This document shows positions 12,905 to 64,000 of a DNA stretch of 64,000 bases, one piece after another; the stretch's first letter is position 1; the number at the start of each line of letters is the position of its first letter. Below the pieces are notes generated by a model that was not told where the DNA came from, ran no database searches, and saw only the letters and a program-made list of their open reading frames with translations. The position numbers were made by a program, and so were the translations under genes. The DNA comes from a virus (Duplodnaviria > Caudoviricetes). The stretch spans positions 64,001 to 128,000 of IMG/VR virus record IMGVR_UViG_3300029288_007060. One strand, 5' to 3'.

Positions 12905-15658
12905 TTAAAATGGAACTATTGCATCTGCCAATTCGGCTCCGGTCATGTTGGCCTCAGTGTTTAAAAATCCCGCCTTTTTCAAATATACAGTCAGAATTAT
13001 CTTGGTTCTCAATTCTGGACTTATACTAGAATAATTAGCATCTATTATGTTTATCCTCAACAAACCAGTGGACTGTGTATATAATAATCCACATGTCGTA
13101 ACATATGCGGGCGAATCCGCTGATAGGGATTGCAGGCCTACAGACACTCTAACCTGATTATCATTTAATGCATCAGCACCAACATATGTTCCGTCATAAA
13201 ATTTCATTTTGTCTTTTATAAATGTGTCAAATATGTCTATATCTCCTTGGGTATCCGCCGCAGGCAAATCTATAATAATTTGGCCTACCTCAAAATCTAC
13301 CGAATAGTCCGTTCCGTCCTCATTTAATAGATTTCCTCCTAACAACAAATCCCCGGATATAGACGATGTGTTTTCTCCACCGTTCTTATCAGACCCTGTG
13401 ATGTCATCTGATACTAATGTTGTAAACGATTTAGAAATAAATCTTCTCATATCCTCTATTATTATATTTTCTGGTACCCAGATAGACAGTAATTCTATCT
13501 CGTACTCTATAGCGGAAAATGGGACATCATTAAATGATGCATCATCTGCTATCATATCTGGCGTGGTATCATCTATATTTTCTACGGTTAAAACCAATCT
13601 TGTTAAAGTACTTCCTACGTCGAATGGTACTCCACCCGAGGACACATAATCTTGAATATCTACTGCGTCTGCTACACTTATTATAGAATCTCCAGTAACA
13701 TCCGCTCTTATAATTTCTTCTATATCAACTGTTCCATTGACAATTGCGTTCTTTTGATCTGCTGACGCAACAGTTCCCAACACTAGCCCTGTTGAATATC
13801 CGTCTAATTCTATCGCTCGTGTAACATCCGCCGCATCTATTGTTCCATCGGCATCGACATCTCCGTATGCATCTTCAAAAATTTCAGATTTTATTATTCT
13901 ATATTTCAAATTGGGCAGGCTTGTATTTGGTGTTAAAATAGACCCCACCAAATTATTAAGTGTCAAATCCGAGTCCGGCTGTATGATGGTGAAAGTATTT
14001 GTCCTCAATAATCCAGGAAAATCTGTCATTCCTGTTATTGATATACTTCTCGACGGATTTGTGTCTCTTACATTTGCCAGCACGATTGTTTCATCTCCAG
14101 AATCTACCAGTGCCGTTAATGAGCTTTCAGACACAATAGAAAAGGATGGTACATCGTCAATTCTGGTAAAAACTTGATTTCCAGTCGCCGGATGGGGAAC
14201 TGGGGTGCTATAATCCTTAATTGCCTGCACTATCATATAATTATATACAGTAGGGGATGTGCTTAAGAGACTGTGGGCTCCTTCGCTATACGGCACCTCT
14301 ATTCCTGTTATATCGTCTTTGACAATTTTTTGAGAAATTATTTGAATTCCATTGTCATAAGCAGTTCCGCTAGTAACTCTAACGGCACTAGTGTACACTC
14401 TAAACCACAGATTGCTTCCATCGATATCTGTCCATTTATTTTGAGAAAATATGGAGAGAATCATATTAGAGTCTGCGCTTATGTTTGTGGCTTCTGGTAA
14501 AATAAATGTTCCTGAGCTTGTATCTCCAGTTCTTCGTATTGTTAGAATATAATATTGTCCATCTGTTATTGTGGAAGTGCTTGGATTTGAAATCGCCGAT
14601 CTCGTAAATACAAAATCCACCACCTTAGGGGACGAATCTAGAACAATGCCCAAGTCTTCTAATTCTGCCTGCGAAAATGACATTTCGGCCAATGATGATG
14701 GCTCTGGGTCAAATTCTATTGCAGACTCTGGGGTAATATCAGTAGGACATGCGGTAGTGGTCTGTAATTTTCTTATTTCTAATGTTATATTTCCTGTCCA
14801 GTCATATTCATGTCCAGCAACCGCCAATGTATCTTCTTCTACAGAAAGCAGAACTGACACTTTTTGTATATTGTTTGTTTTTGCAAGAAATTTTTCTCCT
14901 ATTATATCTGTAGAGTATTCAGACAAACTCCTGCTTTGGGCCGCGGTTATATTTATTTGCAAATCTTCAACATTTAACGTGTCGACTGCGGCTATTTCGT
15001 CCAATATCTCCCCCAACGTAACAGACATATTAGATGGTTTGAAATCGATAAAGTCCATGCTTGGCTCTATAATCTGCTCTGCCATAATAACATCGCGCAC
15101 AACCGTCATAGGCACAGACTCGTATATTTTTAAAACTCCGCCATTATCTATGCAGGCCGTCCCGGTGATTAAGGTATTGCCATTTCCTCTAAAATCTTGT
15201 GTCATAAATGCAAGTATTTTGGTGAAATAATTTTTGGTCGTTTGAGTTTCATTTTTGGTAAATGTCAAGACTTCGTATACGAACGTTCCTCCGAAAATTT
15301 CTCCAAAAATGAATACCTTCGTGGACAAGTACCCTAAAAGATTTGAGCCCGAGATTTCTACATCTAACATGTTTCCTTTAGAAGTATCTGATGGTTGTAT
15401 AAATACCACATTCCCCAGGTCGTCTTCTTCATAAATAGGGGTCCCGTCGAAGTCAATGTCAGTTATCAAACTTGATATAGACGCTGGCGCATCAGATGAA
15501 TCAAACAATATTGTTTGAACCGCTGTCTCTTTTTCGACGCCGCTCCCTATAGAAATATTTGTTGTATTTGCAATGGTATTGTGCCAAGCTTCTTGTTCCA
15601 CATTTAAGTCTGTGTCCACCACTTGTTGTCCATCATACCAAGAATTTCTTAAAACCAT
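12905..15658 (-). CDS. Virion structural (baseplate/appendage) protein with dockerin-like duplicated EF-hand
   Basis: Acidic beta-rich 917 aa; N-terminal WYDGQQV..DL..EQ baseplate-attachment-like motif; GDVDADGTIDAADV...ADVTGDSIISVADAV pair. Confidence 0.65.
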   Translation of the reverse strand: MVLRNSWYDGQQVVDTDLNVEQEAWHNTIANTTNISIGSGVEKETAVQTILFDSSDAPASISSLITDIDFDGTPIYEEDDLGNVVFIQPSDTSKGNMLDVEISGSNLLGYLSTKVFIFGEIFGGTFVYEVLTFTKNETQTTKNYFTKILAFMTQDFRGNGNTLITGTACIDNGGVLKIYESVPMTVVRDVIMAEQIIEPSMDFIDFKPSNMSVTLGEILDEIAAVDTLNVEDLQINITAAQSRSLSEYSTDIIGEKFLAKTNNIQKVSVLLSVEEDTLAVAGHEYDWTGNITLEIRKLQTTTACPTDITPESAIEFDPEPSSLAEMSFSQAELEDLGIVLDSSPKVVDFVFTRSAISNPSTSTITDGQYYILTIRRTGDTSSGTFILPEATNISADSNMILSIFSQNKWTDIDGSNLWFRVYTSAVRVTSGTAYDNGIQIISQKIVKDDITGIEVPYSEGAHSLLSTSPTVYNYMIVQAIKDYSTPVPHPATGNQVFTRIDDVPSFSIVSESSLTALVDSGDETIVLANVRDTNPSRSISITGMTDFPGLLRTNTFTIIQPDSDLTLNNLVGSILTPNTSLPNLKYRIIKSEIFEDAYGDVDADGTIDAADVTRAIELDGYSTGLVLGTVASADQKNAIVNGTVDIEEIIRADVTGDSIISVADAVDIQDYVSSGGVPFDVGSTLTRLVLTVENIDDTTPDMIADDASFNDVPFSAIEYEIELLSIWVPENIIIEDMRRFISKSFTTLVSDDITGSDKNGGENTSSISGDLLLGGNLLNEDGTDYSVDFEVGQIIIDLPAADTQGDIDIFDTFIKDKMKFYDGTYVGADALNDNQVRVSVGLQSLSADSPAYVTTCGLLYTQSTGLLRINIIDANYSSISPELRTKIILTVYLKKAGFLNTEANMTGAELADAIVPF

Positions 15659-15746
15659 TTTTTTCTCCTTTTTTTCATTTTCTACTTGACAATTTCACAA
15701 ACCGTCTTGATAGATATCATTGTATGTGTTAAGCAGGAAAACATAT

Positions 15747-18700
15747 TTATTTACTAAATTTAATAATAGCAGTTGTATTAGCTGGCTTTATTACATTTAT
15801 CAGTGATTTTAATAAATTTGTTAAATAATCATTTCCTATTACTTTATCAAATGAATCTATAACATCTACACTAAATTTAAATATACCGTTAGATGCGTTT
15901 GTTACTTCTGAAAAATCTTGTATCTTGAAAAGCAAAGCATCAAAATCATACAAGGCCGTTGTATTTAAATCTTGTATTACCGGTAGAGCAAAGTCTGTAT
16001 TTTGCTGATAATTAACATCAACGAATACGCCTGATACATTTTTTATTGATTGCAGTCTTTGAATGTCAGAGAATCTAATATTGTCCATAATAGCATTTGC
16101 TCCATTAACACTAAAAATATCAGCCCCTATAAAAATACTTGAAAATACATCTGACATATCAATATTATCTACCAAAAACCTATTAGTCCCTGGTCTTATT
16201 TCTGCTTGTCCGTATACAATTCCTGTTCCATATATAAGGCCTGTTCCGTATTTTATCGTACCTCTTTCATCTCCATCGACAAATAATCGTAGCCTGTCCA
16301 AACCGTTGCTACTGTTTGTTTTCCACATAATCATTATCCTGTGCCACGTATTCCTTTGCCAATCGACATGAACACTTAGTAAATGTTCTATGCTGGATGC
16401 TTTCACAAAGAAATTAACAAAACCGTAAGGATCGAGGAATAGACTAACTCTGTCGCCGCTGTTATTTATTGGAATATACGTCACTTTGACTAAAGTGTTC
16501 TGAGACGGAAGAGGTATACCGAGAGTAATTGTTTTATTATCAATCGTCGATATACCCCCACCATCAAAATAATTTGTGCCTGCATTATAAATATCACTAG
16601 CAAGCCTTACGCTTTTTACAGAGCTGGCCTTCTGGTTTAATAAAACTGATATCTTTGTGATTGAACTTACTGTTTCGTCCACAGAAGATAGCATGTCTAA
16701 ATAATAATGATATTTAGAATTGTTATTTGAATCATCTAATGGGCTAACCCAAAACTCAATAGTCCCCTCATCATTATCGAAAATCGAACCGGCATTGTTT
16801 ATTATAAAGGGATGATTTTCTTTTAATTTAATACCGTATTTGAAATTATCATTAACACTTTTTGCTATTTCAAACCCAGAATCAAATCTGTCAATAAATT
16901 CAGAGGAGTCCGTATTTTCTTTGTCCCAATGAAGCAATAATAATGTATTATCGTCAGCAGTGAATTCAAAATCATAATTATAATCAGTGGTTATTGTTCT
17001 GTCCAATGTTCCTAATTCTTCTCCTACTCTTGTGTCGGTAGACATATAATCCAAAATTCTGACCTCATCAAGCACTGCGTCAACAACATTACTGCCGTTA
17101 AAATCGCTTCCTATTTGCATATAAGTTGGTTGCTCGTTTAAATTAATTCTTAAAAAAGTGGGGTAGTCTATTTCGTAGAAACAACCATTTAAAATAAATG
17201 GAATCCCTGCGCTTCCAAAAATTTCAAATCTAAAAAATCCATTGGAGTATTCTGCGATTTCTGCGTAATCCCCATTGTTTTCGGATTCTGTTATTGGTAA
17301 TTTCTCCCTAATAGTGAAAGTTCCCGCTGCCAATAAGGAATCTAGTGGAACAATATTAACGCTAATGTAATCAATATATCTCCAGTATTCAGAAGAATAT
17401 TTGATAGCATTAGAATCAAATGTTATAATTTCACTTGTATTTCCGGAATATGTTGTTCCATATATAGTGATAAAATTATAATCAACATTATAATTTATAT
17501 TATCTCCTATTAAAGTAATCGCTAATTTTCTGCCGTTTGTTCCATTGCTCGGCTGACAGTAGGCATCAAAGTTTCTTTGGAGCACATCCTCTAATGATAA
17601 ATCAACCAACACGCTGTTCAATGAAAATCCATTATTTTGTGATACTAATGAATTATCAAAAAGTATCTCAGTAACCTTAACTTCTCCTAAATTTACCGGA
17701 GGCATTGAGTTAGTTTTAATAGTATCAAAACCTCCATCATATATATATTTTTTCTCAAGAACCCTGCTGAACAAAAGCCCCAAAGTTTTAACAACAACGG
17801 AATCACCAACATTAACTCCATTTGTTATAGATAAAACATTTGTATAATTTGATCCGCGCGATATATAATAGTCTGGATATCTTGAATTAACGCCATTTAA
17901 TTCCGTCTCCGTTCCTTGAGAGTCAATAGTTATTACAATGAATCTTTGATTATTAGCTGGAGTTTCTATAGTATTGGTTGAAATATTAATACCATAATGA
18001 ATATTCCCAAGCGATAGTGTCAAATTTCTGTCTAATGTTAAAGAAGTATCACCTACTCCAGTAATATTATAATAAGTGCCTAAATTTGGCGAGCCTATAC
18101 CGTCTGGTGTGTCATCAAGAATATATAATTTATCTCCTACTTGAATTCCATTAGAAATAAAGTCTCCTTCATTTGATATAAACATATTAGAAGAAGATGC
18201 TGATGATCCGTCGAACCCCCCTACTATTGCTACAGCAGACGAGGATGTGACTGTCTCAGAAGAAATATCTCCGAAATAAGAATTAGATGGCTCTGGACGG
18301 CCTCCGTATTTATATAAATTAGAAACCTCTTGTCCGTCGATGAATAAATGCATCTCATCTTTTTCAAAAGGAGTGTTTAATTTCCAGGACACAGCAATAT
18401 GATGTAATTGACCGAATTCCCAATCCTTTATATTTGTCGATAAATTATACTTATTAGACTCGGCATCAAAAATTCTGAAATTCAAAAAGCCTGTTCCGTC
18501 TTTAAATAACGAAAAACGATTAGTATCTGGAGACTTGGCCATATCCACTATATAATGAAAATCTCCAGAAGAAAATGACACGCCGTCTTCTGCAATATTA
18601 TCATCATTGATATCAACATCATATCCGTCTATGTTGGCAGAAAAATCTATTCTGTTAGTAAAGCTTGTAATGGTATCATTTATTTCATTTACAGAATAGC

Positions 18701-21700
18701 CGTCTTGACCAGATGGATAAGATATATTATAGAATTCTCCAGTTGTATTAATTGTTCCTGAAAATGTATGATCAGCGTCTCGTGTTTGCTTCCATGTAAT
18801 CACCCATTGGTTATTATCATTATCATACCATATAAAATATCCTACATCATCGTTGTCTTCTGGTTGACTCATACTAAGTTTATTATTTCCTAATTCTAAT
18901 GTGAACGGAATTGTTTCTGGATTTTCTCCAGAAAATCCAATATGCACATCTTCTATATTAGAATATCCGTCCATAGATAAATCGAATGTAATAGACGAAT
19001 CATTTTCATCACCATCCCATGAAGGAACTATCCATGTCTCAAATGTTCCTTCGTCTAATCTTATGTGTGATAGAGCAGGAACGTCAACTTTTTGCGACCC
19101 TGTGATTAACAACCCCTCGTCAAATTTTCCGAAATCATATGATTCTGTATTATTGTATTTTAAATTTTCCAAATACAAATTACTATTTCCTAACACCCAA
19201 CCATTTACATTTTCTGTTATATTGGGTTTAACTTCAGTGAAAGATTCAACAAGATTTTCTATAGACGGGATAGTTGGTCCTGTGATAAAAGATTGAAGCG
19301 TTCCACCCAAAATAGACCTGTACATCTCTCTTTCTATATTGGGAGAGAATGTGGTTAGCTCCTTTATCTGTGTTAATGATCCGAAATTAGATAATAACTG
19401 GTTTCTTAATGCTCCGTATCTATATGTTACGTAGTAATTTTGTCCAGAAACAAGAGAGTTGCTAATACTCCAATCTATACTATTATTTCCATATTCATAC
19501 GATACTAGAATTTCGTCTTTGAGATATTTATAATCTACAAATAATTCTCCGTAATTATAATCAATAACCACCGAGTCTCCATTTTGTAGGTCATTGTCAT
19601 CACCCAATGTGATTATATTTTCTGTGAATGAATCACTTGTTATATCAAAATAATTATTAAGAGATTCAAATGGCAATGTTTCTAATTGAGAGGATTTATA
19701 AATCCCTCTAACCGATATGATATCAAAATCAACCACTATAGTTTTTGGTGCCGATAAAGATGTGTCTACTAAGCTCCAAACTATATTTTTAGCATCAGAT
19801 AGAAAATTTTGGTCAACAATAACCTGCTGTGAATCAATAACACTAATTATGATAAATATTTGGGCCGGCGGATCGTTTGAAGACCCTACCACAAGGGTTT
19901 TCCCCACATCGCTGTCTGTAAAAATAGAGGAATTCGAAGAAAAAATGTTATCGCCTTGTACTGAGACTCCATCAATTCCACTTTGTGATGTCCCCACTAT
20001 CATAGGTCTATTGTTGTCGTTATTCAAAAATCTCTGACCAACGTATTCTATGCCTTCTGTATCAAATGTATTGTCAAAAGCATCGCCTATAGTGTAAGAT
20101 TTTGTGATGGAAACTAACGGATTAGGACTACGATATATATTATAGATATCAAGTATATGACTGTTTTTTGTTTTGACATATTTGTATTTGTAATTTATTT
20201 CGCCCACATCAACACTTTGGGCTGAGCTTACGGCTACATAGACTATCCCGTTATAATAGTCTATTAAAAAGTCGCCAACCGCTTGAAGTTTATCTAAATT
20301 GGCCGATAAATCAGTATATAATATATCTTCAAAAAAGAACTCTCTAGAAAATAACGTATTTGAAAATGAGACAGATGTATTAAAGTTTGAGCCGACAAAT
20401 CTTTCATAAAAATCAGAAATGCCGGAATTCTGTAGATTAATTTTGAAAATCCTTAGGCTTAAGGAATTAGTCAATTCGTCTGACACATATAAAGTTTCAT
20501 TATCAACAGATGAGAATGAAACTTTTTCTCTCAGAGAATCCAGCTGTGTTGGCGCATTTCTTCCAGAAAAACTAATGCTAGAGTCATCAAATCTAGAGAT
20601 GCTATAAATCTCGCCTGTTGTTTCGTTCATAACTTTGAAAACATCCGTTATGGGGTATTTTTTCGTTATTAATTTGAAATCAGATATTAGCCTATTTTCT
20701 ATCCTTTCATTTAAAGCCTCTTGGTGAGACAGCACTCTATAATCGGTATTTTCAGCAAAAGTTTCTTCGTAATAAAATGTTATTTTAGCTTCTAATCCAG
20801 ACAAATCTCTAGATGAGTTTATTGCTATTTCATTTTTGTCTTCATCTATGCTATAATCTAAATTTTTTGTAAAGATTTTTCTAAACAGGTATGTCATTGC
20901 CGGAGGATAATCTCCAGTTCCGTTATTATCTTTATCTTCACCAAACACATTAACTTCTCCCGTTGAATAATTAATGCTATAATCTCCTGGTCTAGAAGGA
21001 GAACGAGAAATACTAAAATCTATTTCTTTAGTAAAAGCGGGGTGTGTCGACACAAACGCTTGTAAGTCATCGGTTGTTATTGTGCTTAAAAATGTTATAC
21101 CGCCAGACTCTAATAATTGATCTAAATTATTTATAATAGGAGCATTATCAACAGAGAATCTATTTACTATGGCCGGAGCGACCTCGCGAGTAACTAATTC
21201 TATTGTCGATAACAATACATTGTCTATATCTATTGTTTTTCCTAATTTTTTGTATACATATGAAACTTTTAATTGATCACCAGCTTGAGGAAATAAAAAC
21301 CCGCCAGAAAGACCGGTTATTGAATTAGAAGATAATTCTATCTCATCATCGTTTAAGTTAACATTAATTCCTGCCAAAGAAGTATCATATCTATTATCTC
21401 TTAGTATATATCCGAATTGCGATATATCGTATTCTGTTGTGGCATTATTTCTTATAAGCCCAACTGAAATTAATTGAATTACATTATGATTACTAACTTT
21501 AATAGTTAATCCTGAAAAATGATTCGCTATATCAATATCGTCAGTAACCAATTCGTTTATTACATCTTCGGCCTGCAAACTAATAGGGTCTAATGTTAAA
21601 CTCTCAATTATAGGATTAATGTGCACATTTGGCCTAACAAGAAAAGATGCTTTTCTAGATTGATTAAATTCTATAAATCCGCTTATATTATTTCCTGATG

Positions 21701-49601: not shown

Positions 49602-49620
49602 TTCTGTCTCCGTAAAAGTT

Positions 49621-52600: not shown

Positions 52601-52647
52601 AATGGAAGTTCTAAATTAGAATCTAATGCCAGTGGATATGAAGTCAT
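49621..52647 (-). CDS. Tail fibre/appendage protein, paralog of 44718-49601
   Basis: Shared blocks: YPLALDSNLELP, ESKIDLDY, HDGY, VQDALEELD, HYPISAY..LTIAHN, LRNNGVLEG. Confidence 0.75.
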   Translation of the reverse strand: MTSYPLALDSNLELPLSENGVTELTADTINSVRDAVMAIEKAIGTSPAGNMQDLVTRINLVIDEDGHLKSSALSTLGLVTLPISNSQIATNANISESKIDLDYSTTTLKALIDDKQTNIDATNASLSTFSVRMINHYAGTSDKHDGYDIDTTETIRGVSTVEEVLHNINNALTDHETDLNIVSHTASTVSVDNVFENISSTNVQDALEELDLVYTGKIEAHQTNHHTNAIQNNIFAESGDQGDLVVTTLASTIFQTDKTVATNILQVMRPNVARVTSKGIDFRALKIGVATTLRIQAGGVDRTYLDIDISSVIPTQDIDIIVAKINTVAQSATNHYPISAYNTGGRLTIAHNIPGYNFTIAILDTVSLSAATALGFEDVITTTFYWPEEKHAAYINGNRIVGLKSLLKIQYTHADSVNPNKIDPALGDLSSLGLDITNNGRILCNITNHSSASSANGTYYIASFPSVSTFLLNTNIALGDFDLEIAADSLSFINNTKGNIYDIFLERDADGYGIISKQTRVQYDSISNVVLRTINKEFPINNIEWEVTSDDYIILYEDNVAGLPVQIPAGFSGNLKVFAPDNISSAIFETYGSPSHSREDMTVYACAESSDLLYLSSVHFCGNLGFDTLKYVTDKRKIGNSIENLSQDILNTVPLTNALDSLRNNGVLEGLDVISNTTSTIKIRGGRVLVSGNILSVPTTDVVIDDFTFANNILMVDSAGHFIVKNEFDAGYTFDDLTSGNNYGDNINVVPILQFETDGVEVDGYLVDKRLIVSKIDKQLLDIETDLNNKIEQVQNTVSGSMWGITIASADGYIAELDPGAHNGFDAVTYGVVGFMAGNNSTTRVFEFNSASLIAYPIFFAPGLTYANIFVETEYTGGLGGPFGASGTAYIEVGIAAKIGIDSVSTYDEYCIVKTLTLGVLPSDSVVEKYVVSIPLSLLDIDNDIMFKLVPRIKIVNSTLIDGGTGDDPEPVIAFNNVRVVTSSYSIAGHINQISSDTSQFALLGDVL

Positions 52648-56600: not shown

Positions 56601-58439
56601 TCCATTATATGCTATACTGGATATATCACTGGTGCCAAAGCCACTAGTGCGTTGCTGCCAGTCAATACCGTTAGTGGATGTTGCTAATGTGCCAGCATCT
56701 CCGCCGGCAACCCATAATCCCTTTCCGTCATAGGCAACGCAATAAATGGAAGTCGATCCAAAGCTACTAGTTCTTTGAGTCCAAGATAGTCCGTCATAAG
56801 ATGTGGCGAGACCGCCACCAGAAGATACCGCAACAAAGATGCCATTGCCACCAGTGCTAAAAACACCAGACGAGGGTCCTCTCCCTATAGAGAAAACGCC
56901 AGTTCCACTATTTCCTCCGCCAATAGACAATATTCCATATCCGTCATATCCGTCGGTATCGCCGCCGCAGGCAATAACTCCGTATCCGGTTCCGGTTCCT
57001 ACTGCGCGAATACCGCATGCGCCGAGGCCACCCACGGATACAATTCCGTGTTTACTGGGACCACCGGTTGCTTCAATTGCGTACCCGCCAGTTGTATTGC
57101 TTCCGCCCCTAACAACAATTCCTGTTCCACCAGTATATGCTCCAGTGGCGTCAATTGCTGTTCCATTAACTCCAGAAGCATATACATATAATGCCGGCGA
57201 TGGCCCAGAGGAACCACCTCCTATAACCTTTACTCCATATCCGGTAGTAGAGGCTCTTGCCTCGATAGCCGTATTGGTATTGGTGGGCTGGGATAATATA
57301 TTGGTTGCATACAAAGCAGACGCAGTATTGACAGAATTTCCTATAATACTAACCGATGTACTATCAGGACCAACCATTGTGTCAAAGTTATTTCCTTCAA
57401 AAATTCCATTTGTAATAGGCCCATAATTTATAGTAGAATAGGGCATAGAGTTTTCGCATATATGAACATTGTTTATCGACACCGCACCAGCGTTTAGAAT
57501 GACACTTAAGTCATATGACGAGGATGTGGTATTTTTTCCTATATAAACATTATCCAAGGAAGATATTTCGTTGCCAACAAAACTGATGGCCTTACCATCC
57601 GCGCCGGCAGTAAACGTATTTCCATCGATAGATATGTTTCTATAAGAGGCCGTGTAACCAGAGTTAGGTTTCGTGGAAGTTGTACCAATAAAAACAGGCT
57701 CTCCTGTCGGAGAACCAAGCCCAAAAGAGCTATCTGACTCAAACACGTTGTCGCGTATTTTTATATTATCGAATGTTACAGCCGTATCGTCAGGATAAAT
57801 ACTAACACCATAAGCATCCGCGTGCGTAAAAAAGGTACAGTCTTGTATGTTTATATTTTTTATTAATTGACCCGACGTAGTTGTTGATATTTCGATAGCA
57901 GAAGATGGCACAGCAGTTGTTGAAACAACATCAAAGCTAATATTTTCTATAGATATATTGCTTCCTGCCAACCTGAAAATAGCCTCTTGCTCCGCGCTTT
58001 CTATAAACACATTTCCTAATCCAGCAATTCTTACGCCACTGGGTACTGTTACCAAACCGTCTGTATAGTTATAATATCCGTCTTTAACTAATATTGTTCC
58101 GCCATAAGCATCAATTACAGACTGAAGAGTGGCCGCAGTCGTACCGCTGGCTGTTCCAAAACTTTGAATTCCATCGCCAACCGTAATTAAAAATTGTTGT
58201 TGTATTTCAAATATATCAGCATTAACATCTGCTTGGAAACTTTCTACCGCAGTAATTCTATCTTTAACTGTTCCGAATATACCTGATGGGTTAGTTCCCA
58301 ATTCAGTCTCGACAGCCACGACAGCATTTCTAATGCGGTTCACGTCCTCGCTTCTTATTTCGTCAATCAAATTTCGACGTAAAGGTAAGCTGGAATAGCC
58401 ATCTATGCCAGCAGGATATAGGGAATTTTCATTTACCAT
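53652..58439 (-). CDS. Tail fibre/spike: anchor, beta-helix, Gly-rich shaft with two 7-repeat beta-propellers, and C-terminal peptidase S74 chaperone
   Basis: 14 LWxAVG..GxLATSxDGxxW repeats; SSDERLKKNI...GYVAQQV...LVKAVQEL S74 signature. Start MVNEN at 58439 has a GGAG RBS (ORF track gives 58451). Confidence 0.85.
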   Translation of the reverse strand: MVNENSLYPAGIDGYSSLPLRRNLIDEIRSEDVNRIRNAVVAVETELGTNPSGIFGTVKDRITAVESFQADVNADIFEIQQQFLITVGDGIQSFGTASGTTAATLQSVIDAYGGTILVKDGYYNYTDGLVTVPSGVRIAGLGNVFIESAEQEAIFRLAGSNISIENISFDVVSTTAVPSSAIEISTTTSGQLIKNINIQDCTFFTHADAYGVSIYPDDTAVTFDNIKIRDNVFESDSSFGLGSPTGEPVFIGTTSTKPNSGYTASYRNISIDGNTFTAGADGKAISFVGNEISSLDNVYIGKNTTSSSYDLSVILNAGAVSINNVHICENSMPYSTINYGPITNGIFEGNNFDTMVGPDSTSVSIIGNSVNTASALYATNILSQPTNTNTAIEARASTTGYGVKVIGGGSSGPSPALYVYASGVNGTAIDATGAYTGGTGIVVRGGSNTTGGYAIEATGGPSKHGIVSVGGLGACGIRAVGTGTGYGVIACGGDTDGYDGYGILSIGGGNSGTGVFSIGRGPSSGVFSTGGNGIFVAVSSGGGLATSYDGLSWTQRTSSFGSTSIYCVAYDGKGLWVAGGDAGTLATSTNGIDWQQRTSGFGTSDISSIAYNGKDLWVAVGAAGKLATSPDGINWTQRTSGFGSSFVAGVVHNGKDLWVAVAQDVKIATSPDGINWTQQDSGLTGTDWLMAVGYDGKDLFVAVGDAGKLTISPDGINWTPQTSSFGTTGILGVSHNGRDLWIAVGGSGKLATSTDGINWTQRTSSFGATQISYVNYNGRDLWIAVGASDKLATSPNGTDWTQRTSGFSSKTLYAVVHTKQSHAGLVGIGKYDGAGVIGKAEGSSGIGVIGYNEDGYSYGVKGIGGIGGVIGLGTSSGNGSGTGVIGIGGNINGMGVMSVGRGFSPGTYGVGGNGLFVAAGEYGMLATSYNGINWVQQADAYSTFDSSNINEVAYNNKDLWIAVGDAGKLATSTDGIIWTLQADALAVFGANNINGIAYNDRDLWVAVGDAGTLATSSNGIDWVSQTSASSIFGAYDITGIDHDGKDLWIAVGTIIVASSSDGMTWTVRDATFGVTKVAHNGKDLWVTVGAGGSLHTSSDGINWASSTFSLSGANGLDVIHNGKDLWIAVCNNSIKSSSTDGITWAPVAAPFSVNNAIAYNGEDTWVMVGNSGSLATSPDGTTWTSQTSSFGTANILSVAHSKHSNAGLVGIGKYDGAGVVGKADGHYGIGVIGYNEDGYSYGVKGVGGVSGVIGFGGTTYSGGNSTGVTGVGGLINGVGVEGLGSGSGYGVSGIGGNSDGYGVYAQGGDNNGIGLFAIGKKSGVGLYAQGGNSNSAGIFAQGGPTNGIGIKGLGVGAGHGVYGTGGSGGGAGVYGLSTSSSNHGVFGYGFGGASSYGVLGIHSGDDGYGVYGGGSNNGSGGYFVSGGTGGVGILCKATTAAAYGAWIQNLNNSIASVGLRIDAGLVSPTMDGDIVWASLRDGGGNEKAIMKWSGINAAFAGSSDERLKKNIEPTKINGLDIINKIELKEFDWKDASLPHVNIGYVAQQVKDIYPNMVSVGSNGMYMVGDSCLVAVLVKAVQELTNRIDELEKKNK
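54830..56850 (-). repeat. Two arrays of seven ~41-aa Asp-box-like propeller repeats with a duplicated linker
   Basis: Repeat units of about 123 bp; the linker AGLVGIGKYDGAGVxGKAxG..GYNEDGYSYGVKG occurs after each array. Coordinates approximate. Confidence 0.85.
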
Positions 58440-59251
58440 TTGAGTCTCCAAAAATCATTTTATCGTATTTTCTTTTCAAATATATGTTTGGTGTGGCATT
58501 CTTGTATATAAAGGCAGAAATTTTATTAATATTTCTTTTCCCACCATAAGCAATAGAAAAAATATTATCATTTTTATGAGAATAAACACTATTTTGATTT
58601 AATTCGCATTGTGATATTAATATATCTCTATACACATATAGAAACTTTTCTGTGCCAACTATAGTGAAATATGGACAATTGTATGCTGTATTATAAGAAA
58701 TACACCCATCTCCATCAAAATATCCGCGCATAAAATGATTAACTAGCGAGTGATTTATTACAAATTCAGGAAAAGTATAAACTAAAGATTTTTTTGGTAC
58801 AATATTAAATCTCGTCAAATCATTGAATATTTTGTTGCTGTGAATTTGAATATATACTGCTTTTCCTCCACACCCAAGATTGTCGTTTTTTTCAGAAATG
58901 GGCCCGTCATATTTCATATCTTGCTTAAATTTTTCCAAATGTTCTTTGTCTTTATAAGAAAGACCTATGCTCAATCTATCCATCCTTTCCTTTTGATGTC
59001 TTATGTTTCCATCAGCCGCGATAAATCCGGCCCAATAAAAAGATTCAGCGGTATCAGCAGAGAAAAAAAGATTCGTTGAAAATATATCTACATCTTCTTA
59101 AGTTATTAAATCCGTTTTCAATCTCCAATCTTTTTAAATGACGCCATATAGACGACGAACTAACATTAAAGGTTTTTGCTACGGCGAACACCGAGCCAAC
59201 TTTCAAATATTCAGCATACCACTTTTTAACATCTTCATCAGTATATATCAT
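58429..59251 (-). pseudogene. HTH plus double-motif LAGLIDADG homing endonuclease, split by a 1-nt frameshift in a T7 run
   Basis: The 65-aa HTH ORF ends FNESFFLC*. Skipping one T at 59063-59069 gives FNESFFSADTAESFYWAGFIAADGNI...RMDRLSIGL, joining the 184-aa ORF that contains FMRGYFDGDG. Confidence 0.8.
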
Positions 59252-59289
59252 ATAGTCCCCGACACGTAAAGAGCATCCAACTAATTGTT

Positions 59290-59307: not shown

Positions 59308-59350
59308 TTTGATTTGATTGTTAAAGAAAAATATTAATCTTATCATACAC

Positions 59351-61060
59351 TTATATTGTAACGAAGTAAGGCGAGTAATTTGTTGGATAGCTGTAGATGG
59401 GATCTGTTTTGTCTAATCTTCTCATTTTTATATCTTGTCTTCCGGTTTTATTAAATAATAATTTATTTCTTGTTACCTCGAGTACCGCATATCTGAATTC
59501 CTCTAAACCATCCTCAGTATATCGTATAATGATGTCTCTACTTTTAATGTTCGGCACCGTCAGTGTCCACATCACTATCTCATCGGGTTGGCGAAGGCCT
59601 TGGTCTTGAACTAGGTCCAAATCGTCAACATACGGAGAAGTTCTCATCATAAACATTCCTTGCGTATTAACAAACGTTTCGCTTATTGGGCGGCTGTTAA
59701 ATAACCTATCAAATCCTCCCTCAAACCCTGTGGCAAAACAATAAGGACACCTAACTCTCTGATGTTCTCTTCTCAAACTAATACATCTGCAACGTTTTCC
59801 TGTCCATCTTCGGCGCAACACCACCACATATTCACCAGTAACTTGCAACATCGAATCCAATTGGGACAATATTCTGTCTTGAAAATTAAATCCTCTGGAC
59901 CCATTATAATCTCCACCTAAATAACTCCCTACGCATTCTCCACTAAAGGAATCCTGCAAGCTGGGCCTATGATAGCCGCAATAATCATAACTAGCAAAAT
60001 CTTCCGCCGCGGTCTCGGAACCAATTAAATCTGTAGTAAGCACGTCTTCTAAAGCGGCCCGATATCCATCTTCGTCTACATTAGCTTGCCCTATAGCATC
60101 TGTATTTCTTGGTGTACCTATTGTATAGAACCAATCAGCTGTAGCTTGTACTATATTACTATTTCCGTCTTCAAACCCGTGCCACAAACTAACTGAGGCG
60201 CCTATATCGTGAGTGCTGGCAAATGTTCCTGATTGGGCTCGGTCAAGCTCTGCAACATAGAAAGTAGTAGCGTCTTTGCTGGAATATTTCATCAACTCGT
60301 AATCTACTAGTATCACTCCAGTATCTGGATATCCTTCCGTGCTTTCTACTTGAACGGAGGCTCCATATGCGTCTATACTATCAGTTAATGTTTGGTCAGT
60401 CGGATATGCGTATACATTTTCTCCAACTTGCTCTAATGCTGAGATTGTAATATCAGAAGTGTCCGCTTCTGCAGCTCTAACGGCCAAATAATATGCTTTT
60501 CCGGGATCAACGCTTATTACAGCTTCTGTTTCTGTAGTAAGATTTTTAGGCCCAACAGAAAAAACCCCAAAACGAGTCGTGGAATAATATATATTGTAAT
60601 ATAATTGCTTGGTCGTACTTGTTGCTAAGGCTTCTCTCCACGCCAAGTGTAACCCCATGCCGTTTCCAACATCATCCACCAACATTAACCCAACGCTTTG
60701 TGCCCATGTGGGATACGGACGACAAACAGGTATTTCTACCGTTTCAGGCTCTACTACTATTTCTCCTTCTTCTTGAACGCCAAAACTGAAACGTCTGGTA
60801 TTGGTAGACATTCCGTCAATTGCTATCCACGACCATTCATCGTAGAGAGTTGTGGGCAACATAGAAGAAGGAATATTATAAGTCACCCTATAAAATCCTT
60901 GAGAGATTTGCGATGGCGTGAGAGTGGCTAATAATGTTCCGCCAGCAGATGCGGTATAAATTTTAACCTGACCAACGAAAAATGGGTTAAAAAGCACACC
61001 ATTGTCATAAAATCGTGACCCGAGATTGATTGAAGTTCCTATTATTCCAGTACGGCTCAT
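59351..61060 (-). CDS. Neck/head-tail adaptor protein with N-terminal Ig/FN3-like domains
   Basis: C-terminal RRWTGKRCRC...RCPYCFATGFEGG Cys motif and head-closure-like region; FN3-like LAW..YNIYY..YYLAVRA. Confidence 0.6.
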   Translation of the reverse strand: MSRTGIIGTSINLGSRFYDNGVLFNPFFVGQVKIYTASAGGTLLATLTPSQISQGFYRVTYNIPSSMLPTTLYDEWSWIAIDGMSTNTRRFSFGVQEEGEIVVEPETVEIPVCRPYPTWAQSVGLMLVDDVGNGMGLHLAWREALATSTTKQLYYNIYYSTTRFGVFSVGPKNLTTETEAVISVDPGKAYYLAVRAAEADTSDITISALEQVGENVYAYPTDQTLTDSIDAYGASVQVESTEGYPDTGVILVDYELMKYSSKDATTFYVAELDRAQSGTFASTHDIGASVSLWHGFEDGNSNIVQATADWFYTIGTPRNTDAIGQANVDEDGYRAALEDVLTTDLIGSETAAEDFASYDYCGYHRPSLQDSFSGECVGSYLGGDYNGSRGFNFQDRILSQLDSMLQVTGEYVVVLRRRWTGKRCRCISLRREHQRVRCPYCFATGFEGGFDRLFNSRPISETFVNTQGMFMMRTSPYVDDLDLVQDQGLRQPDEIVMWTLTVPNIKSRDIIIRYTEDGLEEFRYAVLEVTRNKLLFNKTGRQDIKMRRLDKTDPIYSYPTNYSPYFVTI

Positions 61061-61074
61061 GTTATTTTCCTATA

Positions 61075-61455: not shown

Positions 61456-61509
61456 TTTTTCTCCTTAAATCATTTTAAAATAAAGTTTGTCGGTGGGCAC
61501 GTACAATCG

Positions 61510-61718
61510 ATAGTAAAATAATGCTAATATATCAACAGCATCTTGATGATTTATACTATTACCAATAGTTCTAATGCGTTTTGTATCGTCGCTAGGACAC
61601 TACCATCCGTATAACTCTGATGGTAGTGTCTGATTTTTATTCACTTATTTGAGATCCCCCACCAAATTTACATAATAACTACCGTCATAGTAAAATAATG
61701 ATAATATATCAACAGCAT
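61510..61718. repeat. 32-bp direct repeat (31/32 identical): fibre 3' end (61687-61718) and intergenic copy (61510-61541)
   Basis: atagtaaaataatg[c/a]taatatatcaacagcat at both positions. Confidence 0.85.
61596..61630. other. Perfect 12-bp inverted repeat (hairpin/cruciform)
   Basis: GACACTACCATC-11 nt-GATGGTAGTGTC, 14 nt past the fibre stop codon. Confidence 0.8.
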
Positions 61719-64000
61719 AGGCAGTTGCTGTCAAGGAACCTATGGTTCCGCCACTCCATCTAAAAGTATTAGGAAATGTTATAGTTTTGGCGCTAGAACC
61801 TTGAATAAACATAATATTGTAACTGCCACCATTGATTGGGTTAGTTAATGTTAGTACACAAGGCGAACTGACGTCCTGCAAACTTACAATCTGTGCGTTT
61901 CCAGCATTCCAGTTAATATTTGCATCACCAGTGGGTACTAAATATCCGTCACTAGCCAAATCGGGAGCAATTTGACCAGAAACTATCACATTAGCAGTGA
62001 AGTATCCATCGGCACCAACCGAAAGAGAGCTAGTTGCTGATAAGTCACCATAAACAGTTAAGCTTACTGGATTTGTATATGACCCAATGGATCCAGTGTT
62101 ATTTCCTGTTGCCGTGGCACCATTGCCTATTGCTAGAGCGTTAGTATATGCGGAAGTAGTCGCAAGATATCCGATTGCTATTGAACTAGCACCACTAGTG
62201 ACAGCATTAGAACCGATTGCGATACTAGTGGTAGCTTCGCATTTCGAGTCGGCACCAATTGCCACAGAATTATCAGCAAGCGTCTTACACGTAGCCCCAT
62301 TTCCTATAGCCACAGAATAACTACACGCTGAATGTAAAATTGTGGCGCTATTACCAATAGCAACACTGTTATAAGCCTGGATATTTGTAGAGGGTCCTAC
62401 TGCCGTGCCGTATTGAACTGCTGCATTGGCAGATCTACCAATGGCTACACAATAAGTAGATTGTGAAAGAGCAGAGATACCTATTGAAATAGCGCTATTT
62501 CCTGTTGCAGTAGTAGAATTTCCGATAGCGATTCCACCAACGCCACTAACTCCTGCGTTATATCCAATCGCGGTTCCGCCTGTTGTAATACAATTTGCAC
62601 TGGCACCAGCACCAAATGCTGTAGCCCCTGTGGCATTGCCTGCTGTAGCCCCCTTACCGACAGCAGTGCCACCGATAACGGTGGCAGAAGCCCCAGAACC
62701 AATAGCGGTATTATTAATATTTGTAGTAGCCTGAACATTATATCCGATAGCTGTGCAATCATTCTGCGTTGCTTGTGCGTCACGACCAATTGCAACAGAC
62801 GCTGTTCCTGTTGCATCAGTACCGTATCCAATAGCTGTTCCGCCAGCGCCCGAAGCAATCGCTGTAGAGCCAATGGCAACGGTAGCTATTTGACTAGTTG
62901 CAGCCTGATAGCCAATAGCCACAGCATTAGAAGAAACTGTTACAGACGCTGATCTACCTATAGCTACCGAATTAATTTGATTGCATGTTGCATTGTTTCC
63001 TATTACTACTGATTCTGTCGCAGAAACAATAGCAGTATCTCCAATAGCCAAAGATGTATTTACATTAGCTGTTGCGCCACTACCAAATGCTAATGCCGCA
63101 GTTCCCGTCGCTGATGAACTTGTTCCGATAGCTACCGATCGTGAACCAGATGAAATTGATGCATCCCCAATTGCTATTGCACCTGTGTTTGATTGTGCTG
63201 TGGCATTTGCGCCAAGAGCAACACCTGTACTAATTAATGCTCGTGCATTTTGTCCCAAAGCAACAGCATTTGTTTGTGTTGCTTGACTATTTTGACCAAT
63301 TGCCACAGCAACTAAAGCACTAGCGGTTGCAGAGTAACCAATAGCAACACCGCCTTGACCCGCACTGGCCGCAGAACTTCCGATAGCAACGGAATCCGAA
63401 TTACTGGCATTAGCACTCTTACCAAGAGCTGTAGATGCTTGTCCACCCGCAGATGCGGCATTACCGAAAGCAGAACCTTGTATGCCACCTGCAACAGAAG
63501 ACAAACCAACTGCTGTGGCACTCGCGGCGGAGGCATTTGCAGATTTTCCAAGTGCTGTAGTACCTGCTGCTGTTGCTGTAGAACTAGAACCAAACGCCGT
63601 GGCATTAGTGCCTGTAGTGGCTTGGGCATTATAGCCAACGGCGGTAGAATCTGTAGTAGATGCGGAGGACAACAGACCGAAATGCTCACTAGTTGCTCCT
63701 GTTCCAGGACTTGTTATTGTTCCTACCACATGTAATTCTGCACTAGGAGATGTGGTATGTATTCCTAATCTATTATTTGCTCTGTCCCAGAATAGGTCAT
63801 TATCCCCAGCTATTTTGTTGGTTCCTGTAAAGAAAGTTACATAACCGTCACCAGTGGAGCCTGTTGAGGCGGTATATCCATCTAACGCTGTTTTTAATGC
63901 TGTATTTATTATATTACCATTTATAGTTACATCTCCAGTAAAATCTCTGGTTCCGTTAATTAAAGCGTACTGTGGATGATCGTCGTTTAATAATCCGCTC
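61645..64000 (-). CDS. Tail fibre/adhesin with long YadA-head (Hep_Hag-like) repeat array; 5' end lies outside the window
   Basis: The frame stays open beyond 63729 to the edge (SGLLNDDHPQYALINGTRDFTGD...LFWDRANNRLGI). Dozens of 14-aa xxAIGxxAxA repeats; DHPQY fibre motif. Confidence 0.8.
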   Translation of the reverse strand, partial: SGLLNDDHPQYALINGTRDFTGDVTINGNIINTALKTALDGYTASTGSTGDGYVTFFTGTNKIAGDNDLFWDRANNRLGIHTTSPSAELHVVGTITSPGTGATSEHFGLLSSASTTDSTAVGYNAQATTGTNATAFGSSSTATAAGTTALGKSANASAASATAVGLSSVAGGIQGSAFGNAASAGGQASTALGKSANASNSDSVAIGSSAASAGQGGVAIGYSATASALVAVAIGQNSQATQTNAVALGQNARALISTGVALGANATAQSNTGAIAIGDASISSGSRSVAIGTSSSATGTAALAFGSGATANVNTSLAIGDTAIVSATESVVIGNNATCNQINSVAIGRSASVTVSSNAVAIGYQAATSQIATVAIGSTAIASGAGGTAIGYGTDATGTASVAIGRDAQATQNDCTAIGYNVQATTNINNTAIGSGASATVIGGTAVGKGATAGNATGATAFGAGASANCITTGGTAIGYNAGVSGVGGIAIGNSTTATGNSAISIGISALSQSTYCVAIGRSANAAVQYGTAVGPSTNIQAYNSVAIGNSATILHSACSYSVAIGNGATCKTLADNSVAIGADSKCEATTSIAIGSNAVTSGASSIAIGYLATTSAYTNALAIGNGATATGNNTGSIGSYTNPVSLTVYGDLSATSSLSVGADGYFTANVIVSGQIAPDLASDGYLVPTGDANINWNAGNAQIVSLQDVSSPCVLTLTNPINGGSYNIMFIQGSSAKTITFPNTFRWSGGTIGSLTATAYAVDILSLFYYDGSYYVNLVGDLK

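What the first reader, a model, noticed from the sequence alone, without database searches (positions are those of the whole stretch)
12905..64000. A D-[G/A]-Y(G) motif marks surface-exposed virion proteins: candidate sequon for phage-encoded virion glycosylation
Seen: a hand count from the translations gives about 27 DGY and 11 DAY (9 of them DAYG) in ten proteins totalling ~10,900 aa. Per protein: dockerin protein 2, LamG wedge 4, J wedge 2, sheath 2, completion protein 1, neck 2, and the four fibres 6, 4, 11 and 4 (e.g. GDGYTITIEDGYNGNYALGLDAYG; DTDGYDGYG). About 27 of ~100 DG dipeptides in these proteins are followed by Tyr; a rough compositional estimate predicts only ~3 DGY. I found none in the ~4,400 aa of tube, chaperones, tape measure, initiator, hub, spike, gp25 and neighbouring baseplate ORFs, nor in the GT enzymes. 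The codons vary synonymously (GACGGCTAT, GACGGGTAT, GACGGTTAT, GATGGATAC) and most host proteins are non-homologous, so this is a protein-level signal and not a DNA repeat. Established: some mycobacteriophages and giant viruses glycosylate their virions, and Tyr-O-glycosylation occurs in some Firmicutes S-layers. Inference: D[GA]Y is a recognition tag on the outer virion surface, most simply an acceptor sequon for the adjacent GT cluster (a glycan shield). Alternatively it could be a docking site for a decoration protein or another modification.
Basis: partly seen in the sequence, partly recalled or inferred. Interest (0 to 1): 0.92.

Follow-up and report, generated by a model that had tools for sequence, protein, structure and literature searches.

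The report
DGY tag on huge-phage outer proteins
The fibre, outer baseplate, sheath and neck proteins of this uncultured huge phage and its many relatives carry Asp-Gly-Tyr (or Asp-Ala-Tyr-Gly) about ten times more often than chance, on exposed turns where related phages have ordinary residues. It therefore looks like an undescribed surface tag, possibly a sugar-attachment site on tyrosine, but no modification has been shown.

Summary
The ten proteins hold 27 DGY and 11 DAY, against 2.8 and 2.0 in composition-preserving shuffles. DGY is the most over-represented of all 8000 tripeptides. It is in frame only and shows no strong synonymous-codon bias.

The second form is DAYG, not DAY. The motif is strict: NGY, EGY, DGF and DSY are not enriched.

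It is a family-wide trait. Four related IMG/VR genomes and 80 baseplate loci show 3.5- to 12-fold excess. In 50 fibre orthologues, four sites are nearly invariant DGY and 33 further columns show sporadic gains.

The folds do not need it. A sister lineage has KGK, DSNG or DGL at all 19 clade-conserved sites. Homologues from outside the clade have NGN or DANG hairpin turns there.

The glycosylation reading remains unproven. Every relative examined has a glycosyltransferase island next to the baseplate genes, so there is no negative control. No Tyr-directed enzyme was identified. In a trimer model, some Tyr sit in coiled-coil core positions.

My best reading, at about 0.4, is a surface tag read by a phage enzyme, most plausibly Tyr-O-glycosylation. 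A structural or assembly role is the main rival.

This scan has already reported the same tag on at least 15 other huge-phage genomes.

The parts
12905..15658 (-). Sites: DAYG596 at 13865-13873 and DGY619 at 13796-13804.
   Evidence: The orthologue group in 5 genomes has 8 DGY vs 0.5 expected. No Pfam or PHROG family is called.
15747..22274 (-). 2175-aa LamG-domain wedge protein. Sites: DGY1102, DGY1191, DGY1216 and DAY1570 (18963-18971, 18696-18704, 18621-18629, 17559-17567).
   Evidence: Laminin_G_3 hit. Its orthologues carry 21 DGY vs 2.6 expected. The sister-lineage orthologue carries a tandem DGYSDGYSDGYDDGYDGY array.
22278..25508 (-). 1076-aa Baseplate-J-like wedge protein. Sites: DGYG548 at 23859-23867 and DAYG648 at 23559-23567. 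Both lie outside the J domain (residues 67-279).
   Evidence: PF04865 and phrog_6. 80 IMG/VR relatives were found with it.
40651..43206 (-). 851-aa tail sheath. Sites: DAYG174 at 42679-42687 and DAYG198 at 42607-42615, one in each of two adjacent conserved D-x-x-G-x-P segments that I read as hairpin turns.
   Evidence: Translation checked. Both sites are conserved in all clade members, whereas the sister lineage has DSNG and DSFG. Sheath cluster representatives mostly have DANG or DSNG, and some have DGYG, DSYG or DTYG.
43356..44132 (-). Site: DAYG123 at 43758-43766.
   Evidence: At this site three orthologues have DGY and one DAY, and the sister lineage has TDYG.
44718..49646 (-). 1642-aa fibre with a beta-helix C-terminal part. 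Sites: DGY160, 423, 501, 509 and 901, and DAYG520.
   Evidence: Among 50 orthologues of 41-58% identity, DGY is kept in 48/50, 49/50, 44/50 and 50/50 at four sites, and 33 further columns show sporadic DGY. An AF2 model places D408 and D886 at helix C-termini followed by strands. P0121 numbering is this ORF's numbering minus 15.
49621..52647 (-). 1008-aa fibre, a paralogue of the 1642-aa fibre over its N-terminal part of about 260 aa. Sites: DGY145, 510, 763 and 811.
   Evidence: Its orthologues carry 19 DGY vs 1.1 expected.
53652..58451 (-). 1599-aa Gly-rich fibre with repeats of about 41 aa and a C-terminal Peptidase_S74 chaperone domain. It has 8 DGY and 3 DAY (2 of them DAYG), including the tandem DGYDGY at residues 500-505.
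59351..61060 (-). Sites: DAYG230 at 60365-60373 and DGY331 at 60062-60070.
   Evidence: Both sites are conserved in 4/4 clade orthologues.
61645..64000 (-). C-terminal 784 aa of the 1805-aa fibre with YadA-head repeats (whole gene G000 125645-131062). It has 4 DGY in the window and 11 in the whole protein.
   Evidence: Three copies of residues 1-250 model as a trimer.
1..12828 (-). Start of the glycan island directly downstream of the structural genes: GT4 (11614-12828 and 4404-5399), GT2 genes (10878-11612, 9737-10567, 7678-9732 with two GT domains, 6880-7674, 6113-6880), a methyltransferase (5399-6112) and the end of a PseB-like gene (3-779).
   Evidence: Pfam. The island continues upstream of the window with NeuB, WbuX plus HisH/HisF-like genes, an aminotransferase, cytidylyltransferases, a GNAT, a GDP-mannose dehydratase, an MptE/Maf-like gene and two weak BFO_1060-like paralogues.

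Best explanation
D-G-Y, with the minor form D-A-Y-G, is a selected short linear motif that a whole family of uncultured huge myophages has placed on solvent-exposed turns of its outer virion proteins. These are the fibres, peripheral baseplate proteins, the outer part of the sheath, the neck and three small head-region proteins. Because the folds do not need it, something probably reads it in trans. The most likely reader is a phage-encoded enzyme that acts on the Tyr hydroxyl in the cytoplasm before or during assembly. The most plausible candidate is a glycosyltransferase of the conserved glycan island that follows the baseplate genes, which would start an O-linked glycan on tyrosine.

Shown: the enrichment, its strictness, its conservation, its repeated gain, its independence from the fold, its position at turns, and the presence and content of the island.

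Inferred: that the motif is read in trans, that Tyr is the modified atom, that the modification is a sugar, and which enzyme does it.
For: 1. Size and strictness. The window has 27 DGY vs 2.8 in shuffles. Five genomes pooled have 378 vs 43. NGY (18 vs 40), EGY (25 vs 38), SGY (25 vs 48), DGF (45 vs 51) and DSY (25 vs 44) are not enriched. DAY is followed by G in 49 of 85 cases, and DAY without G is at expectation.

2. Selection.
- Four sites are kept as DGY in 44-50 of 50 fibre orthologues at 41-58% identity, with only 2 Y-to-F changes in about 200 cells.
- DGY also appears sporadically in 33 other columns, the highest rate among 3810 tripeptides. These gains include insertions and multi-substitution changes such as DSI, NAR or SGK to DGY.
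- Tandem DGYDGY arrays occur.

3. The folds do not need it.
- 0 of 19 clade-conserved sites in 10 virion proteins are D[GA]Y in the sister lineage G005, whose MCP is 72% and sheath 43% identical. G005 has KGK, DSN-G, DSF-G, DGL, KGL or DAN there.
- Module homologues outside the clade are bimodally DGY-poor: 76 proteins with 0-2 each (two carry 3 and 5), against 7-32 in clade members. At the same turn they carry NGN, SGN or DGN.
- 117 YadA-like homologues hold 4 DGY in total, against roughly 45 expected.

4. Exposure. In the sheath the Tyr replaces the Asn of a generic D-[AS]-N-G turn, which I read as an exposed hairpin apex. Lys replaces both D and Y at the invariant fibre site in the sister lineage.

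5. Context.
- A GT cluster directly follows the baseplate module in G000, G002 and G003, begins at the contig end in G001, and is present in all 20 further relatives searched.
- The island encodes a nonulosonic-acid route plus an MptE/Maf-like gene.
- No Wzy_C-type O-OTase is found, even in two relatives that are at least 96% complete. Any protein glycosylation would therefore be direct and cytoplasmic.
- Tyr-O-glycosylation exists in bacterial S-layers (PMC2943079), and phage virion glycosylation exists in mycobacteriophages (as cited in PMC12619734).
Against: - There is no chemical evidence of any modification.
- There is no negative control. All 25 relatives searched carry GT genes. The lineage with the weakest tag (3.5-fold, none in its two fibres) has 6-10 GT4 genes in the same place.
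- No family known to glycosylate Tyr was found. GT8 and Wzy_C are absent. The Maf-like hit sits exactly at the cut-off, and from my own knowledge Maf enzymes use Ser/Thr.
- The ESMFold2 trimer of fibre residues 1-250 scored 0.88, against 0.00 for the best of 3 controls. That mark was reached by 21 of 30 solved one-chain pairs and 0 of 23 single chains. The runs agree in at least 95% of their contacts, and the partner pLDDT is at least 88. In this model Y68, Y93 and Y107 lie at a/d-type interface positions of a coiled coil. The pass may be from memory of solved trimers of YadA-like adhesins, and the calibration used two copies, not three.
- Hydrophobic residues are enriched at Y-3 and Y-7. About 10-16% of sites may therefore be core residues that no enzyme could reach after assembly.
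- The island could instead serve DNA or host-surface modification.
Confidence: 0.4

Rival explanations
1. It is an intrinsic structural or assembly motif of trimeric fibres. D-G ends a helix or makes a turn, and the Tyr is the last core layer or an inter-chain clamp, perhaps an ion site on the three-fold axis. This would be comparable to YxD motifs in trimeric autotransporter stalks or HxH iron sites in T4 gp37. Both comparisons are from my own knowledge.
For: - In the trimer model, Y68, Y93 and Y107 are at interface a/d positions while D and G are not.
- In the AF2 monomer model, D408 and D886 are helix C-caps followed by strands.
- Hydrophobic residues are enriched at Y-3, Y-7 and Y-10.
- Most sites are in fibres.
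- Y is almost never replaced by F, so the hydroxyl matters.
Against: - Only about 10-16% of sites have the heptad context.
- The motif also occurs in the sheath and in small head-region proteins, none of which was tested for being a trimeric fibre.
- Orthologues and module homologues fold with KGK, NGN, DSNG or DGL at the same places.
- Tandem DGYDGY and a five-fold DGY array do not fit a cap or a clamp.
- Gly may sit on either side of the Tyr (DGY or DAYG), which does not fit one turn geometry.
Confidence: 0.25
2. It is a non-covalent docking or adhesion site. Exposed Asp-x-Tyr turns would be bound by another virion, decoration or chaperone protein, or would themselves stick to polysaccharide or particles.
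For: The motif is exposed, gained repeatedly, tandem and lineage-specific. Tyr-rich surfaces are typical of binding sites (my own knowledge). LamG, lectin-like and dockerin-like modules are present in the baseplate.
Against: No candidate reader protein was found. The conserved 327-aa gene between the fibres has no informative match. General stickiness would not need a strict Asp at -2 and a Gly next to the Tyr.
Confidence: 0.15
3. It is the target of another covalent change, not a sugar. Candidates are Tyr phosphorylation, sulfation, nucleotidylylation or cross-linking, or Asp-Gly isomerisation.
For: The same sequence evidence applies as for any tag read in trans. Asp-Gly is chemically prone to isoaspartate formation (my own knowledge).
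Against: No Sulfotransfer_3 hit was found in five genomes. No other candidate enzyme was identified. The conserved neighbours are sugar enzymes.
Confidence: 0.12
4. It is a by-product of composition, repeats or shared ancestry of shuffled fibre modules, with no function of its own.
For: Some sites are duplicated modules, such as GDGYVTFFTG...DND appearing twice, and paralogous fibre N-termini.
Against: Shuffles never exceed 10 against 27 observed. The signal is in frame only. There are 297 near-unique contexts in five genomes. Gains occur by point changes inside well-aligned orthologous regions. Nineteen sites in ten unrelated proteins are conserved across the clade.
Confidence: 0.02

Closest known systems
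Virion glycosylation of mycobacteriophages by phage-encoded glycosyltransferases (Freeman et al. 2023, as cited in PMC12619734)
   Same: The phage carries its own GT genes next to structural genes, and surface virion proteins are the presumed targets of a cytoplasmic, phage-directed modification.
   Different: In those phages the glycans sit on the C-termini of capsid and tail-tube subunits. No D-G-Y word and no Tyr linkage is described there. In this phage the modification itself is not shown. The putative targets are fibres, sheath and baseplate, while MCP and tube carry no motif.
Tyrosine O-glycosylation of Gram-positive S-layer proteins (Paenibacillus alvei SpaA, Thermoanaerobacter; PMC2943079)
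   Same: A sugar O-linked to Tyr on a surface array protein is chemically and biologically established.
   Different: That route builds the glycan on a lipid carrier and transfers it outside the membrane with an O-OTase, at 2-4 sites per protein. No Wzy_C-type O-OTase is found in this phage or in two relatives that are at least 96% complete. This phage has tens of sites per protein, and its virions assemble in the cytoplasm.
Bacteroidota general O-glycosylation sequon D-(S/T)-(A/I/L/V/M/T), with nonulosonic-acid-capped glycans in Tannerella (my own knowledge)
   Same: It is a three-residue sequon that starts with Asp. Two island genes weakly resemble the BFO_1060 transferase family of Tannerella.
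   Different: Its acceptor is Ser/Thr at position 2 and the reaction is periplasmic. In this phage position 2 is Gly or Ala, and DSY and DTY are depleted.
Maf-type flagellin glycosylation with pseudaminic or legionaminic acid (my own knowledge)
   Same: It is a cytoplasmic, direct transfer of a nonulosonic acid to many surface-exposed sites of a filament protein. This phage has the nonulosonic-acid pathway and an MptE/Maf-like gene.
   Different: Maf enzymes use Ser/Thr without a strict sequon. The phage protein has 263 aa and scores exactly at the Pfam cut-off.
HxH iron sites of the T4 gp37 fibre tip and YxD motifs of trimeric autotransporter stalks (my own knowledge)
   Same: These are short polar motifs with i/i+2 spacing that recur along a trimeric fibre. 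Some DGY Tyr are modelled at the trimer interface.
   Different: Those motifs are buried structural ligands within one fold. DGY also occurs at turns of the sheath and of small head-region proteins, in tandem arrays, and is dispensable in orthologues.

Membership tests
Protein glycosylation acceptor sequon (generic) | A short ordered motif that is over-represented and/or conserved on accessible parts of target proteins | tested here: met
   27 vs 2.8 in the window and 378 vs 43 in five genomes. Sites are invariant in orthologues. The motif sits where generic homologues have an N-G or x-G-N turn.
Protein glycosylation acceptor sequon (generic) | The acceptor residue carries a glycan | not testable with these tools
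   No cultured member of the family and no proteomic data are available. This needs mass spectrometry.
Protein glycosylation acceptor sequon (generic) | A transferase that recognises the motif is identified | tested here: inconclusive
   There are many GT2 and GT4 genes, an MptE/Maf-like gene and BFO_1060-like paralogues. None can be assigned to protein or Tyr acceptors. GT8 is absent.
Protein glycosylation acceptor sequon (generic) | The motif and the enzyme set are gained and lost together across relatives | tested here: inconclusive
   All 25 relatives searched have GT genes, so there is no negative control. Tag strength differs between three lineages (6.9-, 11.7- and 3.5-fold), with GT2-rich islands in the two stronger and GT4-rich islands in the weakest. 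Three related groups are not independent evidence.
S-layer-type Tyr O-glycosylation (lipid-linked glycan plus O-OTase) | An O-oligosaccharyltransferase with a Wzy_C domain, with transfer outside the membrane | tested here: not met
   PF04932 is absent from G000, G002 and G003 and from two relatives that are 96-100% complete.
Maf-type flagellin glycosylation | A MAF_flag10/MptE-like transferase together with a CMP-nonulosonic-acid pathway | tested here: met
   PF01973 scores 34.6 bits, which equals the cut-off. PseB-like, aminotransferase, NeuB, cytidylyltransferase, GNAT and WbuX genes are present. The Maf match is marginal, and it is weaker still in relatives.
Maf-type flagellin glycosylation | Ser/Thr acceptors on a flagellin-like substrate | tested here: not met
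   The conserved hydroxyl residue of the motif is Tyr. DSY and DTY are depleted, and DGT is at its Markov expectation.
Generic beta-turn or helix-cap motif (Asx-turn, N-G type turn, Schellman-like cap) | The same residues recur at the same structural position wherever the fold occurs | tested here: not met
   Gly, and partly Asp, are generic. The Tyr is not. Outside the clade the same turns read NGN, SGN, DANG, DSNG or KGK.
Trimer-axis clamp or metal site (gp37 HxH-like, TAA YxD-like) | Motif side chains face the three-fold axis in a trimeric fibre | tested here: inconclusive
   In the trimer model, Y68, Y93 and Y107 are interface a/d positions, while D and G are not in the interface. This context fits only about 10-16% of sites. 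The sheath and small head-region proteins also carry the motif.

The most novel reading that the evidence does not exclude
A large family of huge phages uses a dedicated tyrosine sequon, D-G-Y or D-A-Y-G. Phage-encoded cytoplasmic glycosyltransferases coat the fibres, sheath and baseplate with complex glycans capped by nonulosonic acid. This would be a virion-wide Tyr-O-glycan shield with its own code, gained repeatedly at new surface turns in a manner comparable to N-glycan sequons on animal-virus envelope proteins.
Probability: 0.3. Interest if true: 0.9.

Novelty: new variant of a known kind. Interest (0 to 1): 0.72.

Why it matters
If the tag is read by an enzyme, it would be the first defined acceptor code for phage virion modification. 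It would also be the first cytoplasmic Tyr-directed protein glycosylation in a virus of bacteria.

A three-letter word would then predict which surfaces of hundreds of uncultured huge phages are coated. That bears on host recognition, on escape from adsorption blocks or grazers, and on particle stability.

If the motif is structural instead, it is a new lineage-specific building rule for giant trimeric fibres.

Either way, the motif marks outer virion proteins in these poorly annotated genomes. It also gives a simple experiment: express a fibre fragment with the island genes and weigh it.

Tried and rejected
- Foldseek of the 985-residue fibre model against the PDB gave only meaningless multi-domain matches, with TM below 0.1.
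- phmmer of the 1642-aa fibre against PDB sequences found nothing. The 1805-aa fibre matched only YadA-like heads.
- A full-text search for 'DGY motif' returned no paper. Searches on Tyr-O-glycosylation with phage returned only S-layer work. Zarschler 2010 and Freeman 2023 are not held.
- The P0002 contig (233 kb) turned out not to be a clear relative.
- Records from the look-up of encoding contigs cannot be searched whole.
- G005 first looked like a GT-free, DGY-poor control. Its contig simply ends at the first island gene, and its twin G006 shows four GT4 genes there.
- I looked for a clade-specific reader among the small genes between the fibres. The 327-aa protein has no informative family or fold, and the 184-aa ORF is LAGLIDADG-like.
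- A DNA-level motif is rejected, because the signal is in frame only.
- A general property of YadA-like or fibre modules is rejected.
- Whether the phage is a 'moraphage' (PMC12619734) could not be checked.
Full report
**What is in the window.** All genes lie on the minus strand. The window is bases 64001-128000 of a 158,007-bp virus record that CheckV rates 39% complete. The same fibre gene sits on a 246,754-bp ENA contig.

From 12905 to the window end lies the tail and fibre module of a contractile-tailed phage:
- Baseplate-J-like protein (PF04865).
- Sheath.
- LamG-domain wedge protein.
- A fibre with a C-terminal Peptidase_S74 chaperone domain.
- A fibre with YadA-head repeats.

Bases 1-12828 begin a glycan island with GT4 genes, five GT2 genes and a methyltransferase. 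Upstream of the window the island continues with a PseB-like gene, an aminotransferase, WbuX plus HisH/HisF-like genes, NeuB, cytidylyltransferases, a GNAT, a GDP-mannose dehydratase, an MptE/Maf-like gene at the Pfam cut-off, and two paralogues with a weak likeness to BFO_1060-family transferases.

- Shuffles that keep each protein's composition give 2.83 +/- 1.68 DGY, never more than 10 in 3000, and 1.96 DAY.
- Among all tripeptides of the structural ORFs, DGY ranks first by composition and by a first-order Markov expectation.
- The DNA word GAYGGNTAY occurs 34 times in frame, 3 times out of frame and once on the other strand, with ordinary codon use. The signal is therefore at protein level.

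Two corrections apply. The zero count in inner tail proteins and in the enzymes is expected by chance (0.63 and 0.72 expected), so the contrast rests on the excess and not on an avoidance. The second form is DAYG. In five genomes DAY is followed by Gly in 49 of 85 cases (7.7-fold), and DAY without Gly is at expectation.

**It is a family trait, and it is strict.**
- Fifty orthologues of the 1642-aa fibre (41-58% identity) and 24 more distant fibres hold 396 DGY against 26 expected.
- Four related IMG/VR genomes, fetched whole, give 59 vs 8.8, 159 vs 13.9, 23 vs 5.6 and 95 vs 5.2. One 3634-aa protein has 57 DGY among 94 DG.
- Pooled with the window's genome, DGY is 378 vs 43 and DAY is 85 vs 37. 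NGY, EGY, SGY, DGF, DGW, DSY and DTY are at or below expectation.
- Eighty baseplate loci, found with the J protein, fall into three identity groups with 6.9-, 11.7- and 3.5-fold excess.
- By orthologue group, the motif is in the fibres, the 917-aa, LamG and J proteins, the 258-aa and 569-aa proteins, and three small head-region proteins with one conserved site each. The sheath has two conserved DAYG. It is absent from the major capsid protein, the tube, the 1550-aa inner protein and the enzymes.

**It behaves like a selected word, not like inherited structure.** In the fibre alignment, four sites are DGY in 48, 49, 44 and 50 of 50 sequences. Y-to-F occurs twice in about 200 cells. Another 33 columns carry DGY in at most six sequences, the highest such rate of 3810 tripeptides (1.83 against a median of 0.44). 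These include insertions and changes that need two or three substitutions. Tandem copies are common: DGYDGY occurs in the window, and the sister lineage's LamG protein has a five-fold array.

**The folds do not need it.**
- A sister lineage (G005, 211 kb) has the same gene order, with its MCP 72% and its sheath 43% identical. None of its residues at 19 clade-conserved sites in ten proteins is D[GA]Y. It has KGK or KAK at the invariant fibre site, DSN-G and DSF-G in the sheath, and DGL, KGL and DAN elsewhere.
- Homologues of the fibre's N-terminal modules from outside the clade are bimodally poor in DGY. At the same turn before VGIGT they read NGN, SGN, DGN or GGN.
- 117 YadA-like homologues hold four DGY in total, against roughly 45 expected.
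- Sheath representatives from across the wider family mostly read D-[AS]-N-G-x-P at both sites. Tagged lineages read DAYG, DGYG, DSYG or DTYG.

The Tyr thus replaces the Asn of a generic D-x-N-G turn, which I read as an exposed hairpin apex. That is about as exposed as a residue can be.

**Evidence pointing the other way.** In an AF2 model of the fibre's first 985 residues (pLDDT 70.5), D408 and D886 end helices and the Tyr leads into a strand.

Three copies of residues 1-250 of the 1805-aa fibre were folded by ESMFold2.
- The score was 0.88, against 0.00 for the best of three controls.
- That mark was reached by 21 of 30 solved one-chain pairs and by 0 of 23 single chains.
- The runs agree in at least 95% of contacts, and the partner pLDDT is at least 88.
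- The pass may reflect memory of solved trimers of YadA-like adhesins, and the calibration used two copies, not three.

In that model a coiled coil runs through three DGY. Y68, Y93 and Y107 lie at a/d-type interface positions, and D and G lie outside the interface. Across five genomes, hydrophobic residues are enriched at Y-3 (43 vs 23%) and Y-7 (40 vs 27%). About 10-16% of sites end heptad-like helices, against 1-5% of other Tyr. For this minority a structural role is plausible, and access by an enzyme after assembly is not.

**The link to the sugar genes is real but not discriminating.**
- GT2 clusters lie directly after the baseplate module in G000, G002 and G003, and one begins at the contig end in G001.
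- Twenty further relatives all have GT2 genes. These lie next to the baseplate in the strongly tagged group.
- The weakly tagged group has one GT2 and 6-10 GT4 genes there. This includes a complete 335-kb genome with terminal repeats.

The island's make-up differs between strongly and weakly tagged lineages, but three related groups are only a lead. No GT8, no Sulfotransfer_3 and no Wzy_C-type O-OTase was found. Any protein glycosylation would therefore be direct and cytoplasmic, unlike S-layer Tyr glycosylation.

**Verdict.** The motif is real, strict, old, still being gained, exposed at most informative sites, and dispensable for the folds. This is best explained by something that reads it.

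A phage glycosyltransferase acting on Tyr is the most economical reader, and I put it at about 0.4. A structural or assembly role is the main rival at about 0.25. Docking and other modifications follow.

No paper in the searchable library describes the motif. Earlier notes of this scan report the same tag on at least 15 other huge-phage genomes, with the same open question.

Noticed in passing
window 3-779, continuing to G000 63619-64779 (L048:15619-16779): The PseB-like dehydratase (Polysacc_synt_2) carries an N-terminal MerR-type HTH domain at residues 6-48. A sugar enzyme fused to a DNA-binding domain is unusual.
   Followed up: no
window 1965-2492: A thymidine kinase gene (PF00265, E 3e-40) sits inside the glycosyltransferase block.
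   Followed up: no
window 58429-58983: A 184-aa LAGLIDADG-like ORF lies between two fibre genes. It has a 46%-identical paralogue at G000 132455-133576, so it is probably a homing endonuclease inserted in the structural module.
   Followed up: partly
window 53652-58451: The 1599-aa fibre is 17.8% Gly. It holds about ten repeats of about 41 aa (ATSxDGINWTQ...DLWVAVG, propeller-like), which explains the DLW excess, and it ends in a Peptidase_S74 self-cleaving chaperone domain.
   Followed up: partly
G005 6616-16164 (L060), residues about 2058-2075 of the LamG wedge orthologue: A low-complexity array DGYSDGYSDGYDDGYDGY occurs in a lineage whose fibres have no DGY at all. The 917-aa orthologue there has DGYAVDGYADE.
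   Followed up: partly
G010-G029 and G000-G003, the islands after the baseplate module: The make-up of the island differs by lineage. The two strongly tagged lineages have 2-9 GT2 and 1-4 GT4 genes. The weakly tagged lineage has 1 GT2 and 6-10 GT4 genes.
   Followed up: partly
L048:7240-8337 and L048:8334-9431 (G000 55240-57431): Two adjacent 365-aa paralogues, plus a 390-aa relative, have no Pfam family. They weakly match NCBIfam BFO_1060-family glycosyltransferase and TIGR04396, and they lie beside the Maf-like gene. They may be nonulosonic-acid transferases.
   Followed up: partly
whole record G000: The 158-kb record is only part of the genome. The identical fibre gene lies on a 246,754-bp ENA contig, and complete relatives are 335-435 kb. 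IMG/VR labels the record 'provirus', although every annotated gene seen in the stretches examined is phage-like or a sugar-pathway enzyme.
   Followed up: no
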